A stretch of 64,000 nucleotides of DNA from sequence record NC_012638.1; one strand, written 5' to 3'. The notes under the pieces were generated by a model, which saw nothing but the letters and a program-made list of their open reading frames with translations, was not told where the DNA came from and searched no databases. Positions 6,064 to 40,081 of the stretch are shown piece after piece (position 1 is the first letter of the stretch; each line of letters starts with the position of its first letter). The stretch comes from Escherichia phage RB14. Both the position numbers and the translations under genes were made by a program.

Positions 6064-6402
6064 TCAGCTGTAACGATAGCACTCGTTTGATTTACGCTTA
6101 GCAACTAGTTGAGAAGTATTATAATCAAAATCATCGTCAATGTAAACAGATTTTTTCAACTTTCTTACTTCACCACGCAGTTGACGATTCAATTCATTCT
6201 TAACCTCTGAATCAACACCTCGCATACGTCGCCATTTATCTGAACGAAAAATGTTTTCAACCATATCTTTATGACTTACCCCATCAGGAGCTTTACGCTT
6301 TCCGAAATAGTCATAATCGCGCACTTTTAAATCTTTACGACGATACGTTTTACCCATGGAGTTTAATTTCCTTAGCAACTGAACTAAATACAGCACGGTC
6401 AC
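6064..6402 (-). CDS. hypothetical basic protein
   Basis: ORF track 112 aa; alternative start at 6357. Confidence 0.5.
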   Translation of the reverse strand: MTVLYLVQLLRKLNSMGKTYRRKDLKVRDYDYFGKRKAPDGVSHKDMVENIFRSDKWRRMRGVDSEVKNELNRQLRGEVRKLKKSVYIDDDFDYNTSQLVAKRKSNECYRYS

Positions 6403-6532
6403 AAATCATCTGTTTATGTAACTTGAGTATAAGATAATAAACTTCAAAACCGTTTACATAAGTAACACGAACAACATTACCATTAATAAAATAATACTGT
6501 CCCTTTTTAATTTCTTTATCAACCACAACCAT
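6350..6532 (-). CDS. hypothetical protein
   Basis: ORF track 60 aa; early promoter and GAGG SD immediately upstream. Confidence 0.45.
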   Translation of the reverse strand: MVVVDKEIKKGQYYFINGNVVRVTYVNGFEVYYLILKLHKQMICDRAVFSSVAKEIKLHG

Positions 6533-6562
6533 ATCAATTCCTCAAAGGCAATTCATATGTTA

Positions 6563-6593
6563 ATAATACCACAGTTTGAACTTCTTGTAAACA
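6563..6593 (-). promoter_or_regulatory. Early (sigma70-type) promoter
   Basis: Minus strand GTTTACA-N17-TATTAT upstream of ORF 6350..6532. Confidence 0.55.
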
Positions 6594-6663
6594 ACTTTGT
6601 GAAAATTATTTTAGGGAATGATAAGAAGGGAACGATAGCTTAGAATGGTAATATACAGAATGT

Positions 6664-30337: not shown

Positions 30338-30811
30338 TTATTTGAACGATTTAACGTACTGAATAGAACCTTTACTATTCACAAAGGCAATTTTACCATT
30401 TTTGTTATACATGGTAGCAGTACGTTGATAGCCATAAGTTTGTTTACCAGATTGATAACCAACTAATGCAAAATTATCTTCACCCATTTTATTCTGTTTA
30501 GCACGAATGCGTTCATGGCCATGTGCCATAAGAACCTTAGCATCACCTGTTGCAATGGATCGACGAGTTTTTTCATCTTCAACTGTATTAACAAAGTCGT
30601 CAAATGAATCAAATTTAGCATGAGATTTATTATACAGTTTTCCATCTACTGCATAATTATATCCTTGTACATCCATCTCAACTTCTGTACCATCATCCAA
30701 TACAGCAGTGATTTTCTGTCCTTTTTTAAATTTCAAAAGATCAGTAAAAGATTCAGCAATAATTTGAGAATTAATAGCTGCTTCAGTAATAAATTCTTGA
30801 TATGTTTTCAT
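30338..30811 (-). CDS. Internal protein with capsid-targeting sequence (ipII/ipIII locus)
   Basis: 157 aa; N-terminal MKTYQEFITEAA matches the T-even CTS; adjacent to e. Confidence 0.65.
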   Translation of the reverse strand: MKTYQEFITEAAINSQIIAESFTDLLKFKKGQKITAVLDDGTEVEMDVQGYNYAVDGKLYNKSHAKFDSFDDFVNTVEDEKTRRSIATGDAKVLMAHGHERIRAKQNKMGEDNFALVGYQSGKQTYGYQRTATMYNKNGKIAFVNSKGSIQYVKSFK

Positions 30812-30905: not shown

Positions 30906-31436
<531 letters not shown>

Positions 31437-34902: not shown

Positions 34903-34932
34903 ATAATACCATAGAAGAACAGGGATGTAAAC
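34903..34932 (-). promoter_or_regulatory. Early promoter
   Basis: Minus strand GTTTACA-N17-TATTAT; leader ACAACTATCAACTACTGATAC. Confidence 0.6.
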
Positions 34933-36092: not shown

Positions 36093-36168
36093 TGGTCGAG
36101 GCAGTAGGGATCGAACCTACGACCCAGGACTTAGAAGGTCCTTGCTCTTCCTTCTGAGCTATGCCTCG
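36093..36168 (-). tRNA. tRNA-Arg (anticodon UCU)
   Basis: Cloverleaf read by hand: acceptor CGAGGCA/TGCCTCG, anticodon loop CTTCTAA, T-loop TTCGATC, encoded CCA. Confidence 0.85.
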
Positions 36169-36172
36169 TATT

Positions 36173-36247
36173 TGGCGGACGTGATAGGATTCGAACCTAT
36201 AACCAATCGCTTAACAGGCGATCGCTCTGCCATTGAGCTACACATCC
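36173..36247 (-). tRNA. tRNA-Asn-like (anticodon GUU), atypical, possible pseudogene
   Basis: D-arm GCTC/GAGC, anticodon arm ATCGC-CTGTTAA-GCGAT, T-arm ATAGG-TTCGAAT-CCTAT, CCA; 5' acceptor strand looks 2 nt short. Confidence 0.45.
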
Positions 36248-36249
36248 AA

Positions 36250-36336
36250 ATTGGTGGGGAGTGATGGAGTCGAACCACCCGAGTCGCAATGACAATGAAT
36301 TTACAGTCCACACCGCTACCTCTACGGGATAACTCC
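36250..36336 (-). tRNA. tRNA-Tyr-like (anticodon GUA), class II with long variable arm
   Basis: Acceptor GGGGAGT/ACTCCCC, anticodon loop CTGTAAA, 15-nt variable arm, T-loop TTCGACT, CCA; D-arm atypical. Confidence 0.55.
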
Positions 36337-36347
36337 CCTAATTAATT

Positions 36348-36422
36348 TGGTGGCCCTGGGTGGAATTGAACCACCATCTGGCGATTATGAGTCGCTTGCT
36401 TGAACCTTCCAGCTACAGGGCC
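36348..36422 (-). tRNA. tRNA-Ile (anticodon CAU, T4 type)
   Basis: Acceptor GGCCCTG/CAGGGCC, anticodon loop CTCATAA, T-loop TTCAATT, CCA. Confidence 0.85.
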
Positions 36423-36423
36423 T

Positions 36424-36499
36424 TGGTGCTGATTGACGGAATCGAACCGCCGACCTTCTCATTACAAGTGAGTTGCTCTACCTACTGAGCTAAATCAGC
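36424..36499 (-). tRNA. tRNA-Thr (anticodon UGU)
   Basis: Acceptor GCTGATT/AATCAGC, anticodon loop CTTGTAA, T-loop TTCGATT, CCA. Confidence 0.88.
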
Positions 36500-36504
36500 A
36501 AAAC

Positions 36505-36594
36505 TGGCGGAGGCGATAGGATTTGAACCTATGAGTCGCCGGAGCGACTGCCGGTTTTCAAGACCGGTGCATTAAACCACTCTGCCACGCCTCC
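36505..36594 (-). tRNA. tRNA-Ser (anticodon UGA)
   Basis: 90 nt class II; acceptor GGAGGCG/CGCCTCC, anticodon loop CTTGAAA, long variable arm, CCA. Confidence 0.9.
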
Positions 36595-36596
36595 AG

Positions 36597-36668
36597 TCTC
36601 CATACAAGGATTTGAACCTTGGACCTCCTGATCCCAAATCAGGCGCTCTACCAAACTGAGCTACACGG
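36597..36668 (-). tRNA. tRNA-Pro (anticodon UGG), CCA not encoded
   Basis: Anticodon loop TTTGGGA, T-arm CAAGG-TTCAAAT-CCTTG; 3' end 2 nt from tRNA-Ser 5' end. Confidence 0.8.
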
Positions 36669-36678
36669 AGTAAATTAA

Positions 36679-36752
<74 letters not shown>

Positions 36753-36757
36753 GCAAA

Positions 36758-36844
36758 TTTGGTGCGAGAAGTGGGACTCGAACCCACAAGGAAATCATTC
36801 CGCAGCATTTTAAGTGCTGTGCCTTTACCAATTTGACCATTCTC
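36758..36844 (-). tRNA. tRNA-Leu (anticodon UAA)
   Basis: 87 nt class II; acceptor GCGAGAA/TTCTCGC, anticodon loop CTTAAAA, long variable arm, CCA. Confidence 0.88.
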
Positions 36845-36845
36845 G

Positions 36846-36918
36846 CGCTGGGAATAAAGGACTCGAACCTTTGCATCCTGGAATCAAAATCCAGTGCCTT
36901 ACCAACTTGGCTAATTCC
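36846..36918 (-). tRNA. tRNA-Gln (anticodon UUG), CCA not fully encoded
   Basis: Acceptor TGGGAAT/ATTCCCA, anticodon loop TTTTGAT, T-loop TTCGAGT; abuts tRNA-Leu. Confidence 0.85.
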
Positions 36919-37017
36919 CAATTATTAACAAAGGCTCTCTAACAAGAACCCTTGATGATAGAGGGTATTAATCAGTGCGGTATGAGTTAATAATAACAAA
37001 TAATTCTTAAAGCATAT

Positions 37018-37305
37018 TTACCATTTATGATAATACGTATTTACGATACATTCAAGACCCAAAGGATTCTTGAAAATATCATATTCAAGAGGACCTTTTT
37101 CTGTTTCAATAAAGAAATCAAAATTTACTATATTAAATTTACGGTCTTCCTTCACTAATTTAACCTGAGAAGATGAACGGTCAATGTAAACCTTTTCAAC
37201 TTCAAAACATGTTAAAATGCCATAATCATCAATCAAGGCTTTAGCTGCTTCTTGATCATATTTATATCCATTTTCAATGGATGATACTTTAGCATAAAGA
37301 ATCAT
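37018..37305 (-). CDS. hypothetical protein
   Basis: ORF track 95 aa. Confidence 0.45.
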   Translation of the reverse strand: MILYAKVSSIENGYKYDQEAAKALIDDYGILTCFEVEKVYIDRSSSQVKLVKEDRKFNIVNFDFFIETEKGPLEYDIFKNPLGLECIVNTYYHKW

Positions 37306-37718: not shown

Positions 37719-37904
37719 TTATTCACCTTTAGAAATTTTATCCATAACAATAGCGATTAAACCAATTAAAAATGCTACTACAAGTGAAAACACATTTTCT
37801 GCTGTAGTCAATAATCCGCATATAAATCCAACAAACATTGAAAAACTAAAAGCAGAAGCAGAAATTGCAATAGCAACATTTCGAATTAATTCACAGCGTT
37901 TCAT
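37719..37904 (-). CDS. small membrane protein
   Basis: 61 aa from ATG at 37904 (MKRCELIRN...); track N-terminal 20 aa translate promoter/leader. Confidence 0.45.
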   Translation of the reverse strand: MKRCELIRNVAIAISASAFSFSMFVGFICGLLTTAENVFSLVVAFLIGLIAIVMDKISKGE

Positions 37905-37933
37905 TTTATTCTCCTCGGTAGTTGATAGGGTAA

Positions 37934-37962
37934 TAGTATCACTACTAAAACCCCATGTAAAC
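37934..37962 (-). promoter_or_regulatory. Early promoter
   Basis: Minus strand GTTTACA-N17-TACTAT upstream of ORF 37719..37904. Confidence 0.55.
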
Positions 37963-37980
37963 AACTTTGTGAATTATTTA

Positions 37981-38268
37981 TTACAAAAGATTTTTAGCAA
38001 TAATCTTGAGATGTGCCGCAGAAATGTGTTTAGCTTTAAACAACGCAGTTTCTTCAGCAGGAGAGATAACGATTGTAGCACCATCCTTTTTAGCAGACCA
38101 CCCATCACCTAGGTAAACAGTACCTTTGATTTCTTCACCATCAACCAGACTAATCATCGGTTTACCTTCTCGTCCTTTATTTGCTTTAATAACTTCAGAA
38201 GTAAGAGTAGCTTCAGTAATAGTAGAAACCGGGGTAGTCGTAGAAGTAAATTCTTTGAAAGTTTTCAT
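37981..38268 (-). CDS. Internal protein with capsid-targeting sequence (ipI locus, copy A)
   Basis: 95 aa; MKTFKEFTSTTT N-terminus; own early promoter. Confidence 0.6.
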   Translation of the reverse strand: MKTFKEFTSTTTPVSTITEATLTSEVIKANKGREGKPMISLVDGEEIKGTVYLGDGWSAKKDGATIVISPAEETALFKAKHISAAHLKIIAKNLL

Positions 38269-38298
38269 TTTATTTTCCTAATTAATTTTGATGAGATA

Positions 38299-38328
38299 AT
38301 AGTATCATAACTAAAACCCCATGTAAAC
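38299..38328 (-). promoter_or_regulatory. Early promoter of IP copy A
   Basis: Minus strand GTTTACA-N17-TACTAT. Confidence 0.6.
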
Positions 38329-38340
38329 AACTTTGTGAAA

Positions 38341-38598
38341 TTATTTTAAATCTTCTAATCGTTTCTTCATCTTAGAACCGTTCTTAGCGATTTCGCCTGC
38401 GTCAGAGCATAATGCTAAAAGCGCTTTAACTTTAGTTTGGTCTCCTTTAAAAGATGAAGGATCGACTGCAGCAGCAAGTTCTTTAATACGAGAGAAAAGA
38501 CGCTCAGCTTCAGCTAAAGCCATTCCAAGCTTTACTTCCATACCGTGGGAAGATTCAGTGATAGTAGTTTTTGTAGCAAACTCTTTGAAAGTTTTCAT
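38341..38598 (-). CDS. Internal protein with capsid-targeting sequence (ipI locus, copy B)
   Basis: 85 aa; MKTFKEFATKTT N-terminus; near-identical promoter/leader to copy A. Confidence 0.6.
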   Translation of the reverse strand: MKTFKEFATKTTITESSHGMEVKLGMALAEAERLFSRIKELAAAVDPSSFKGDQTKVKALLALCSDAGEIAKNGSKMKKRLEDLK

Positions 38599-38618
38599 TT
38601 TATTTTCCTAATTAATTT

Positions 38619-38648
38619 TGATGAGGTAATAGTATCACTACCTCATCA
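38619..38648 (-). promoter_or_regulatory. Early promoter of IP copy B
   Basis: Minus strand GTTTACA-N17-TACTAT; -10 sits in loop of inverted repeat GATGAGGTA/TACCTCATC. Confidence 0.55.
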
Positions 38649-38670
38649 GCATGTAAACAACTTTGTGAAA

Positions 38671-39355
<685 letters not shown>

Positions 39356-39356
<1 letters not shown>

Positions 39357-40081
39357 TATAGTACCTTTAGTGTATTTTTAATTTTAGAAAAAAGTTCTTC
39401 AAGAGAACCATCGTTTGTAATTACTAAATCGCCATCACGAATTGGCAATCCAGCTTCTGTAATATGTGTATCATTGGATTTTTGACCAGGACGAACTACA
39501 TGAATTACTGTAGCACCCATCGCCCTAGCCGCATCCATTTCATGATCTTGACGGGTATCAGGAACGATATAATAATCATAACCTGAGTTAAATTTATCAA
39601 GATAATCTAAAGCAAATAATTTTACCCAGTACATGCGGTCGAAGTTATTAACAATCAAATCCGTACCTAGGGCTTGCATCAGACGACGGACTGACCATTG
39701 ATCTTCAATATTATTTATAACGTCAATAATCTTGTTAAATGCTACAGAATTAACTGATTCTTGTCCTTCGTCATCAAAAACAAACACACCCTTAATTGGG
39801 CTTTTACCATTAAGATAGCAAAATGCTTGTTCCATAATCGTGATTACTTCTAATTTAGTCAGATTTAAATTAGTCTCACGATCATAGTCAATTCCTTCAA
39901 ACTCTTTACGAGTTAAGCAAGGATAGTCAGTGTTTGCTGCAAATACTCCCCATGCATAAGCTAATGCATCTTTAATAGGACCAGCAAGTTGATATTTAAC
40001 TGCAGAATAATTATTCATGATAAAATCTGCAGTAGTATCTTTTCCACTACGCTTTACACCGCTTAAAAAGATTAGTTTCAT
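39356..40081 (-). CDS. 1: Deoxynucleoside monophosphate kinase gp1
   Basis: 241 aa from ATG at 40081; P-loop GVKRSGKDT. Confidence 0.9.

What the first reader, a model, noticed from the sequence alone, without database searches (positions are those of the whole stretch)
37934..38670. Tandem duplication of an early promoter plus internal-protein gene at the ipI locus, with diverged coding bodies
Two adjacent ORFs (95 and 85 aa) both begin with a capsid-targeting-sequence-like MKTFKEF N-terminus. Each is preceded by a nearly identical roughly 70-bp module (GTTTACA-N17-TACTAT, AGGAAAATAAA-ATG), while the mature parts differ completely. T-even internal proteins are injected with the DNA, and IPI* is a known restriction inhibitor, so this looks like a diversified pair of injected anti-defence candidates.
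Basis: partly seen in the sequence, partly recalled or inferred. Interest (0 to 1): 0.65.

Follow-up and report, generated by a model that had tools for sequence, protein, structure and literature searches.

The report
Known T-even internal-protein cassettes ip5 and ipI
This is the well-described variable "ipI locus" of a T4-like phage, holding two head-packaged, host-injected protein genes (ip5 and ipI) that share a promoter and packaging-signal module; the arrangement was published in 1994, so it is ordinary, though the target of Ip5 has not been identified.

Summary
Two minus-strand ORFs, 38341-38598 (85 aa) and 37981-38268 (95 aa), both start MKTFKEF. Each follows a 72-nt module; the two are 63/72 identical, with TTTACA-17-TACTAT and an AGGA ribosome-binding site. 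The mature parts show no similarity.

The pair is already known. The 95-aa protein has the same amino-acid sequence as T4 IPI (Pfam IPI_T4, PDB 2JUB). The 85-aa protein has the same amino-acid sequence as Ip5 of phage RB15 (GenBank Z35082, Repoila et al. 1994). The RB3 genome record carries the same ip5-ipI order, with the ip5 gene noted "Ip5". T4 lacks exactly the 330-nt ip5 cassette.

"Tandem duplication with diverged bodies" is not the best reading. The bodies are unrelated. The same cassettes occur in other combinations: T2 ip5-ip7, RB15 ip5-ip9-ip7-ip8, KAW1E185 ipI plus another IP. The junction promoter is a hybrid of two types. The evidence fits cassette shuffling by recombination in the conserved modules, as already proposed in the literature.

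IPI is a proven GmrSD inhibitor. I found no functional test of Ip5; it is under purifying selection (16 synonymous and 0 non-synonymous codon differences in two comparisons), so an anti-defence role is plausible but inferred. Novelty: already known. Interest: low.

The parts
38671..39129 (-). Gene 57B = acb1 (anti-CBASS nuclease), the upstream neighbour. Its last codons D-L-K-stop are part of the repeat.
   Evidence: Pfam PF23474 Acb1, E 2.7e-60. 98.3% nt identity to T4 57B. T4 57B shown to be Acb1 in PMC9117128.
38599..38670 (-). Module 1: T4 early-type promoter (-35 TTTACA 38657-38652, -10 TACTAT 38634-38629), a 13-bp stem-loop across the spacer and -10, the leader and an AGGA ribosome-binding site. 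It drives ip5.
   Evidence: RNA fold -17.4 kcal/mol, z -3.7. It has the same spacer hairpin and leader as the T4 57B-ipI intergenic promoter, which is annotated 'put.' PE2 plus 'pot. stem-loop' in X03016.
38341..38598 (-). ip5, internal head protein Ip5, 85 aa. The capsid-targeting propeptide is codons 1-15 (38554-38598), with predicted gp21 cleavage after I13-T14-E15. The mature product is about 70 aa, pI 9.2.
   Evidence: Same protein sequence as RB15 Ip5, Z35082.1. phrog_3499 'internal head protein', E 1e-49. I13, T14 and E15 are invariant in the close homologues. 10 synonymous/0 non-synonymous codon differences vs RB3 and 6/0 vs RB15. AF2 two-helix hairpin, pLDDT 71.
38269..38340 (-). Module 2: the second copy of the promoter/leader (-35 38327-38322, -10 38304-38299), driving ipI. 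It is a hybrid: the spacer left arm is of the trna.4 type (ATGGGGT) and the right arm and leader are of the 57B-proximal type.
   Evidence: 63/72 identical to module 1. Alignment A1. Weaker stem, -12.3 kcal/mol. Comparison with the T4, T2 and RB15 junctions.
37981..38268 (-). ipI, internal protein I, 95 aa. The propeptide is codons 1-19 (38212-38268). Mature IPI* is residues 20-95 (76 aa), the injected inhibitor of the GmrSD type IV restriction enzyme.
   Evidence: Pfam PF11634 IPI_T4, E 7e-54, over residues 20-95. PDB 2JUB matches residues 20-95. Protein identical to T4 IPI, with 7 synonymous differences only.
37905..37980 (-). Module 3: the third copy of the promoter part (-35 37961-37956, -10 37938-37933), with a stem-loop and the generic early leader TATCAACTACCGAGGAGAATAAA. 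It drives trna.4.
   Evidence: Fold -18.0 kcal/mol. The matching T4 site is annotated 'put.' PE1 / 'pot. IpI terminator' in X03016.
37719..37904 (-). trna.4, a 61-aa predicted membrane protein with no capsid-targeting sequence. It marks the downstream boundary of the variable IP locus.
   Evidence: Protein identical to T4 Trna.4. phrog_1692.
39712..39719 (-). TATAAATA late-promoter motif inside gene 1, matching T4 PL1. It is a possible source of late transcripts running through 57A-57B-ip5-ipI.
   Evidence: Motif found and aligned with the X03016 feature 'pot. -10 region (PL1)'. Its use is inferred, not shown.

Best explanation
This segment is the hyperplastic ipI locus (between 57B/acb1 and trna.4) of a Tequatrovirus close to the RB3 group. 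It carries two internal-protein cassettes, ip5 and ipI.

Each cassette is a T4 early-type promoter overlapped by a stem-loop, then a shared leader and ribosome-binding site, then a shared 5' coding end for the capsid-targeting sequence (CTS), then an unrelated protein body.

Mechanism for IPI (shown in T4, not here):
- The CTS takes the protein into the prohead scaffolding core.
- The gp21 prohead protease cuts after L/I-X-E, here I17-T18-E19.
- About 360 copies of the 76-residue IPI* stay in the head and are injected with the DNA.
- IPI* blocks a GmrSD-type type IV restriction enzyme that cuts glucosyl-hmC DNA.

Mechanism for Ip5 (inferred): the same route, with cleavage after I13-T14-E15. 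This gives a basic product of about 70 residues, predicted to be a helical hairpin. It most likely disarms another host defence that acts at DNA entry, most plausibly a different GmrSD-family variant.

Origin (inferred from comparisons): the repeated modules serve as homology patches for T4 recombination. Recombination adds, removes and re-pairs cassettes. The 330-nt ip5 cassette is exactly what T4 lacks here.
For: Identity:
- IPI: PF11634, E 7e-54; 2JUB matches residues 20-95; protein identical to T4 IPI.
- Ip5: same protein sequence as RB15 Ip5, Z35082.1.

CTS and cleavage rules:
- The CTS is a 10-19-residue propeptide. Targeting depends on residues 4 and 7, and gp21 cuts after L/I-X-E (PMC9026906).
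- Both ORFs have F4 and F7 and an ITE site.
- ITE-S is invariant in the close Ip5 homologues, even in a variant that has lost five CTS residues.

Promoters:
- Three TTTACA-17-TACTAT sites.
- They match sites annotated as putative early promoters PE2 and PE1, with potential stem-loops, in T4 record X03016.
- All three fold into stem-loops.

Cassette shuffling:
- T4 lacks window 38273-38601, about 330 nt, which equals the repeat period.
- Other phages have other combinations: T2 ip5-ip7, RB15 ip5-ip9-ip7-ip8, KAW1E185 ipI plus a 77-aa IP.
- The 57B-proximal promoter keeps its own spacer type whichever IP gene follows it. The sequence after ip5 always has the GGGTTTTAG type, and the sequence after the -10 follows the next cassette.
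- Against RB3, mismatches are dense from 40152 to 38380 and absent from 38379 to 37597. The lineage breakpoint therefore sits at the ip5 3' end or junction module.
- Only 10 phage records hold the direct ip5-ipI junction, although each gene alone is widespread.

Selection: ip5 shows 10 synonymous/0 non-synonymous codon differences vs RB3 and 6/0 vs RB15. ipI shows 7/0 vs T4.

Anti-defence context:
- Ip1, Ip2 and Ip3 each block a distinct GmrSD variant (PMC12373910).
- acb1 lies next door, and this is described as an anti-defence island (PMC9117128).
- PMC2839356 credits Repoila 1994 with PeSL-like elements at the IP loci.
Against: Nothing here shows that Ip5 is in virions, is cleaved or is injected. 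No target is known, and I found no paper that tests Ip5.

The Ip5 structure model is only moderate (pLDDT 71, from a 5-sequence alignment). Its fold matches are generic helical hairpins with E > 0.4, so they say nothing about function.

Ip5 has two further L/I-X-E motifs (LAE at 28, IKE at 38), so the cleavage site is not certain.

The breakpoint and hybrid-promoter evidence is consistent with recombination in the modules but does not prove the mechanism. Part of the module similarity is simply the extended T4 early-promoter consensus.

The primary paper (Repoila 1994) could not be read here. I rely on its GenBank record and on papers that cite it.
Confidence: 0.9

Rival explanations
1. One reading: a local tandem duplication of promoter plus IP gene, after which the two coding bodies diverged beyond recognition while the 5' module stayed conserved.
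For: There is a strict 330-nt period, and the repeat covers the promoter, the leader, the first ~11 codons and even the last codons D-L-K-stop of the preceding gene. In the window, ipI codons 3-4 (ACT TTC) match ip5 rather than T4 ipI (ACA TTT). That could reflect local homogenisation between neighbouring copies.
Against: The mature parts give no alignment at E <= 100. They belong to different fold classes: solved alpha/beta IPI* versus a predicted two-helix hairpin. All differences between phages are synonymous, so the proteins are not changing quickly. Identical ip5 and ipI cassettes occur separately and with other partners in T4, T2, RB15 and KAW1E185. An Ip5 relative (48% identity) sits in the other IP locus, next to the e lysozyme gene, in Mosigvirus.
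Confidence: 0.05
2. Ip5 is a packaged internal protein, but its main role is structural: neutralising DNA charge, or helping core and head assembly as reported for IPIII. It would not be an inhibitor of host defence.
For: Mature Ip5 is basic (pI 9.2, 13 K+R vs 10 D+E). T4 IPs bind DNA at low salt, and IPIII mutants assemble heads more slowly with a lower burst size (PMC9026906).
Against: IP genes are dispensable on laboratory hosts, and their presence varies between close relatives. That pattern fits accessory, host-specific functions. All three T4 IPs, including IPIII, now have a specific GmrSD target (PMC12373910). The locus lies next to acb1.
Confidence: 0.15
3. Ip5 is an injected inhibitor of a defence other than type IV (GmrSD-family) restriction.
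For: No GmrSD link is shown for Ip5. Its predicted fold is unlike the solved IPI* fold. Its neighbour acb1 targets a different kind of system, CBASS.
Against: All three characterised internal proteins of T4 target GmrSD-type enzymes, and the known GmrSD diversity is very large (PMC12373910). That makes another GmrSD variant the prior expectation.
Confidence: 0.2

Closest known systems
T4 internal protein I (IPI / IPI*, Pfam PF11634, PDB 2JUB)
   Same: The 95-aa ORF has the identical protein sequence, the same flanking genes (upstream side shifted by ip5), the same ITE19 processing site and the same promoter class.
   Different: Seven synonymous nucleotide differences from T4. In the window its promoter is the hybrid junction module, not the 57B-proximal promoter that drives ipI in T4.
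Ip5 of phages RB15, RB70, T2 and RB3 (GenBank Z35082.1; Repoila, Tetart, Bouet & Krisch, EMBO J 1994)
   Same: The 85-aa ORF has the same protein sequence as RB15 and RB3 Ip5, and it sits in the same position directly after 57B.
   Different: 6-10 synonymous differences. The downstream partner differs: ipI here and in RB3, ip9 in RB15, ip7 in T2.
Promoter-early stem-loop (PeSL) cassettes of RB49/phi1 (Arbiol et al. 2010, PMC2839356)
   Same: An intergenic module combines an early promoter with a stem-loop and an SD/start, flanks small variable genes, and is proposed to be the site of homologous exchange that shuffles them. The three window modules have all these parts.
   Different: The authors themselves call the T-even IP-locus elements analogues, not homologues. 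They say these elements are built on T4 early promoters, with weaker AT-rich stems that lack polyG/polyC. Here the homology also runs into the coding sequence (the CTS).
T4 Ip2 and Ip3 (GmrSD inhibitors; Silas et al. 2025, PMC12373910)
   Same: CTS-bearing, head-packaged, injected small proteins with unrelated bodies, each specific for one defence variant. This is the functional model proposed for Ip5.
   Different: They are encoded in the other IP locus near e, which in this window holds ipIV instead. Their activity has been shown; none has been shown for Ip5.

Membership tests
T-even internal proteins (CTS-bearing, head-packaged) | N-terminal capsid-targeting sequence of the MKT(F/Y)(K/Q)EF type, with the targeting residues at positions 4 and 7 | tested here: met
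   Both ORFs start MKTFKEF, with F4 and F7. The rule comes from PMC9026906.
T-even internal proteins (CTS-bearing, head-packaged) | A gp21 protease site L/I-X-E at the end of a 10-19-residue propeptide | tested here: met
   IPI has I17-T18-E19, and the solved IPI* begins at residue 20. Ip5 has I13-T14-E15, invariant in the close homologues. Ip5 also has LAE28 and IKE38, so the site actually used is inferred.
T-even internal proteins (CTS-bearing, head-packaged) | Encoded in one of the two IP loci (57B-trna.4, or near e) | tested here: met
   The order is 57B-ip5-ipI-trna.4.
T-even internal proteins (CTS-bearing, head-packaged) | Physically present in virions in processed form and injected with the DNA | not testable with these tools
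   This needs virion mass spectrometry or injection assays. It is established for T4 IPI (PMC9026906). No data were found for Ip5.
IPI_T4 nuclease inhibitor (Pfam PF11634) | Match to the family HMM above the gathering score | tested here: met
   The 95-aa ORF scores 180 bits against a cut-off of 25. Ip5 (38341-38598) does not match this family: its only Pfam hit is a sub-threshold DUF (13 bits vs 26), and mature Ip5 vs IPI* gives no alignment. Ip5 is therefore not a member.
Inhibitors of GmrSD-type type IV restriction | Blocks a GmrSD enzyme, or rescues phage plating on a GmrSD-carrying host | not testable with these tools
   Shown for the T4 IPI sequence, which is identical to the window's (PMC3012670; PMC12373910). 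Untested for Ip5.
PeSL-like mobile regulatory cassette | Early promoter plus overlapping stem-loop in an intergenic module that flanks variable genes | tested here: met
   Three promoter matches. Stem-loops of -17.4, -12.3 and -18.0 kcal/mol, z -3.7 to -2.5. The flanked genes vary between phages.
PeSL-like mobile regulatory cassette | Terminator/attenuator activity of the stem-loop, and recombination (mini-circles) at the modules | not testable with these tools
   The consensus scan found no intrinsic-terminator-like site, because no T-run follows the stems. The recombination evidence here is comparative only.

The most novel reading that the evidence does not exclude
Ip5, a roughly 70-residue basic protein predicted to be a helical hairpin and delivered pre-made with the DNA, inhibits a host defence that is not a GmrSD-type restriction enzyme. 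If so, the CTS cassette locus next to acb1 would be a general delivery platform for first-minute counter-defence, not a dedicated anti-type-IV arsenal.
Probability: 0.15. Interest if true: 0.55.

Novelty: already known. Interest (0 to 1): 0.12.

Why it matters
As a discovery it adds nothing. The gene pair, the conserved leader motif, the flanking promoter and stem-loop blocks, and the cassette-shuffling idea were published in 1994, and the arrangement is annotated in the RB3 genome.

What remains is practical. I found no identified target for Ip5. In 2025 Ip1, Ip2 and Ip3 were each shown to disarm a different GmrSD restriction variant. Ip5 is widespread (≥95% identical in 248 phage records) and strictly conserved, which makes it an obvious next candidate for the same kind of screen. 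Finding its target would extend the map of which injected protein defeats which defence, and that map bears on predicting the host range of T4-like therapeutic phages.

Tried and rejected
- Function of Ip5 from sequence. Pfam gave only a sub-threshold DUF. NCBIfam and PADLOC gave nothing. A PDB sequence search gave only noise, E >= 0.76.
- Function of Ip5 from structure. The AF2 model is a two-helix hairpin with pLDDT 71. Foldseek against PDB and BFVD returned only generic or designed helical hairpins, E > 0.4, which is uninformative.
- Homologue search. It returned only five near-identical proteins, so the alignment behind the model is shallow. The 48%-identical Mosigvirus relative came from tblastn instead.
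- Literature. No paper was found that tests Ip5; the whole-word 'Ip5' search was swamped by inositol-phosphate papers. Repoila 1994, Bair 2007 and Rifat 2008 are not in the held library. They are cited here through their GenBank record and through papers that quote them.
- My first pattern search for the promoter used a spacer one base too long and found nothing. The corrected search is.
- Intrinsic terminators. None was found between the cassettes, so I do not claim that the stem-loops terminate transcription.
- Rejected readings: that the ORFs are chance ORFs (the differences are all synonymous; ip5 is ≥95% identical in 248 phage records), and that the module similarity is only promoter consensus (the leader plus CTS is 33/34 identical, against 6-17/34 for other early promoters).

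Full report
**1. What is in the sequence**

Everything in this region is on the minus strand. The gene order is:
- gene 1 (dNMP kinase)
- 57A
- 57B (38671-39129)
- an 85-aa ORF (38341-38598)
- a 95-aa ORF (37981-38268)
- a 61-aa membrane-protein ORF (37719-37904)
- two more small ORFs
- ten tRNA genes (36093-36920)

Both focal ORFs begin MKTFKEF.

The intergenic stretches 38599-38670 and 38269-38340 are 63/72 identical without gaps. Eight of the nine differences lie in the promoter spacer. Each stretch has TTTACA-17-TACTAT, with a TG two bases upstream of the -10 hexamer, and AGGAAAATAAA before the ATG.

- It spans 123 nt at 87% identity, with a period of 330 nt.
- It takes in the last codons plus stop (D-L-K-stop) of both 57B and the 85-aa ORF.
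- It also takes in about the first 11 codons of each internal-protein gene.
- A 43-nt core is exact in both copies, with none expected by chance.

Two qualifications apply. First, a third copy of the promoter part precedes the 61-aa ORF (37931-37973). Second, the upstream half of the module (TTCACAAAGTTGTTTACA) belongs to an extended early-promoter consensus that recurs at 6592, 34932 and 19797. Only the leader plus N-terminal coding part is specific to the pair: 33/34 identical, against 6-17/34 for the other early promoters.

**2. What the genes are**

The 95-aa ORF is ipI:
- It hits Pfam IPI_T4 at E 7e-54 over residues 20-95.
- The solved 76-residue IPI* (PDB 2JUB) matches exactly residues 20-95.
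- The protein is identical to T4 IPI; the seven nucleotide differences are all synonymous.

The 85-aa ORF is ip5:
- Its protein sequence is identical to Ip5 of phage RB15 in GenBank Z35082.1. That record is titled 'Bacteriophage RB15 DNA for Ip5, Ip9, Ip7, Ip8'.
- It belongs to phrog_3499, 'internal head protein'.

The neighbours and the closest genomes:
- The upstream gene 57B is Acb1, the anti-CBASS nuclease (PMC9117128).
- The 61-aa ORF is trna.4.
- The whole 2.1 kb is 98.2% identical to the RB3/RB5/RB6/RB7/RB9/RB10 group. The RB3 RefSeq record carries 57B, 'internal head protein (note Ip5)', ipI and trna.4 in this order.
- T4 lacks only window 38273-38601, about 330 nt, which is one repeat period and equals the ip5 cassette.

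**3. Duplication or cassettes?**

The proteins align only over residues 1-26 and 1-22. The mature parts give no alignment at E <= 100.

IPI* is a solved alpha/beta fold (PMC3012670). Ip5 is predicted to be two long antiparallel helices (residues 17-44 and 54-84, pLDDT 71).

Both genes show only synonymous differences between phages. For ip5 the counts are 10 synonymous/0 non-synonymous vs RB3 and 6/0 vs RB15. For ipI they are 7/0 vs T4 and 9/0 vs KAW1E185. The proteins are therefore conserved rather than diverging quickly.

The same cassettes occur in other combinations:
- T4: ipI alone
- T2: ip5-ip7
- RB15: ip5-ip9-ip7-ip8
- KAW1E185: ipI plus a 77-aa IP

The direct ip5-ipI junction is found in only 10 phage records. 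By contrast, Ip5 at 95% identity or better is found in 248 records. A relative with 48% identity sits in the other IP locus, next to the lysozyme gene e, in Mosigvirus.

The modules are themselves mosaic:
- The 57B-proximal promoter keeps its CTGATGAGGTAG spacer whichever IP gene follows it.
- The sequence after ip5 always carries the GGGTTTTAG-type spacer.
- The sequence after the invariant TGATACTATTA follows the next cassette.
- The window's ip5/ipI junction promoter is accordingly a hybrid, with a weaker stem-loop: -12.3 kcal/mol, against -17.4 and -18.0 for the other two.

Against RB3, mismatches run at about one per 40 nt from 40152 down to 38380. They then stop completely until 37596. 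This places a lineage breakpoint at the 3' end of ip5 or in the junction module.

All of this fits recombination in the conserved modules. It does not fit in-place duplication followed by divergence.

**4. How it most likely works**

Shown for T4 in the literature:
- Internal proteins carry a 10-19-residue N-terminal capsid-targeting sequence. Residues 4 and 7 direct packaging into the prohead core.
- gp21 cuts after L/I-X-E.
- About 360 copies each of IPI, IPII and IPIII stay in the head and are ejected with the DNA (PMC9026906).
- IPI* inhibits the GmrSD type IV enzyme that cuts glucosyl-hmC DNA (PMC3012670).
- Ip1, Ip2 and Ip3 each block a distinct GmrSD variant, with no cross-protection (PMC12373910).

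Inferred here:
- Ip5 has F4 and F7 and an invariant I13-T14-E15-S16. It should therefore be packaged and cut to a basic product of about 70 residues, pI 9.2.
- That product is injected and most likely disarms another defence that acts at DNA entry.

Transcription:
- The promoters match sites annotated in T4 record X03016 as putative early promoters PE2 and PE1, with potential stem-loops.
- A TATAAATA motif equivalent to T4 PL1 is kept at 39712-39719. It could supply late transcripts for head assembly. This too is inferred.

**5. Comparison with what is known, and novelty**

The ten ip ORFs, their conserved leader and the variable IP loci are credited to Repoila et al. 1994. PMC12373910 cites that paper for 'at least 10' Ips and for the N-terminal signal. 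[quoted passage not shown]

The finding is thus a correct re-reading of a published and annotated locus. What I could not find is a target for Ip5: no functional test turned up. My attempts to infer one from sequence families and from fold gave nothing.

**6. Verdict**

- Observation: confirmed.
- Interpretation: partly supported. The locus, the protein class and the anti-defence expectation are right. The duplication-and-divergence origin is not supported, and the third module was missed.
- Novelty: already known.
- Interest: low (0.12).
- Most novel reading not excluded: Ip5 targets a defence other than GmrSD (probability about 0.15).

Noticed in passing
window 37905-37980 (-): A third copy of the promoter/stem-loop module drives trna.4, a 61-aa membrane protein with no capsid-targeting sequence. 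Its leader (TATCAACTACCGAGGAGAATAAA) is a generic early leader also seen downstream of the promoters at 34932, 19797 and 17661.
   Followed up: yes
window 38671-39129 (-): Gene 57B is Acb1, the anti-CBASS cyclic-nucleotide nuclease (PF23474, E 2.7e-60). It lies directly upstream of the two IP genes, so this stretch is a small counter-defence island. Its nucleotide sequence is closer to T4 (98.3%) than to RB3 (96.3%), whereas ipI and trna.4 are 100% identical to RB3. The backbone is therefore mosaic.
   Followed up: partly
window 30338-30811 (-): The second IP locus, just downstream of the lysozyme gene e (30906-31400), holds a single 157-aa CTS-bearing gene (MKTYQEFITE...). It is identical to the gene annotated ipIV in phage PP01. 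T4 has ipII and ipIII at this place. About 68-70% identical homologues occur in Klebsiella phages.
   Followed up: partly
window 36093-36920 (-): Ten tRNA genes lie in one uninterrupted cluster (Arg, Asn, Tyr, Met, Thr, Ser, Pro, Gly, Leu, Gln), as in RB3. T4 has Ile instead of Met after Thr, and the segB homing-endonuclease gene splits its cluster. Alignment with T4 breaks down below about 36410.
   Followed up: partly
window 39712-39719 (-) and 37259-37266 (-): Two TATAAATA late-promoter motifs correspond to the sites annotated PL1 (inside gene 1) and PL2 (inside trna.2) in T4 record X03016.
   Followed up: partly
window 6561-6603 (-): An early-promoter-like site shares the upstream element TTCACAAAGTTGTTTACA with the IP-locus modules (3 mismatches over the 30 specified bases of the 43-nt pattern). 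It sits upstream of a 60-aa ORF (6350-6532). All 12 GTTTAC(A/T)-N-TA(C/T)(T/A)AT matches in the window are on the minus strand.
   Followed up: no
L005 (T2, PV958097.1) 1501-1755; P0004: Ip5 variants exist with small in-frame deletions. T2 lacks one Ala in the A42-A44 run. A metagenomic variant (P0004, 81% identical) lacks five residues of the propeptide but keeps ITE-SSHG. This supports ITE/S as the processing site.
   Followed up: partly
LR597657.1 (Escherichia phage T4_ev240) 70509-72904: This record, labelled as T4, also carries the ip5-ipI junction (97.3% over the junction query). Its match to the 2.1-kb query spans about 2.4 kb in two pieces, which suggests a further insertion in the locus.
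   Followed up: no
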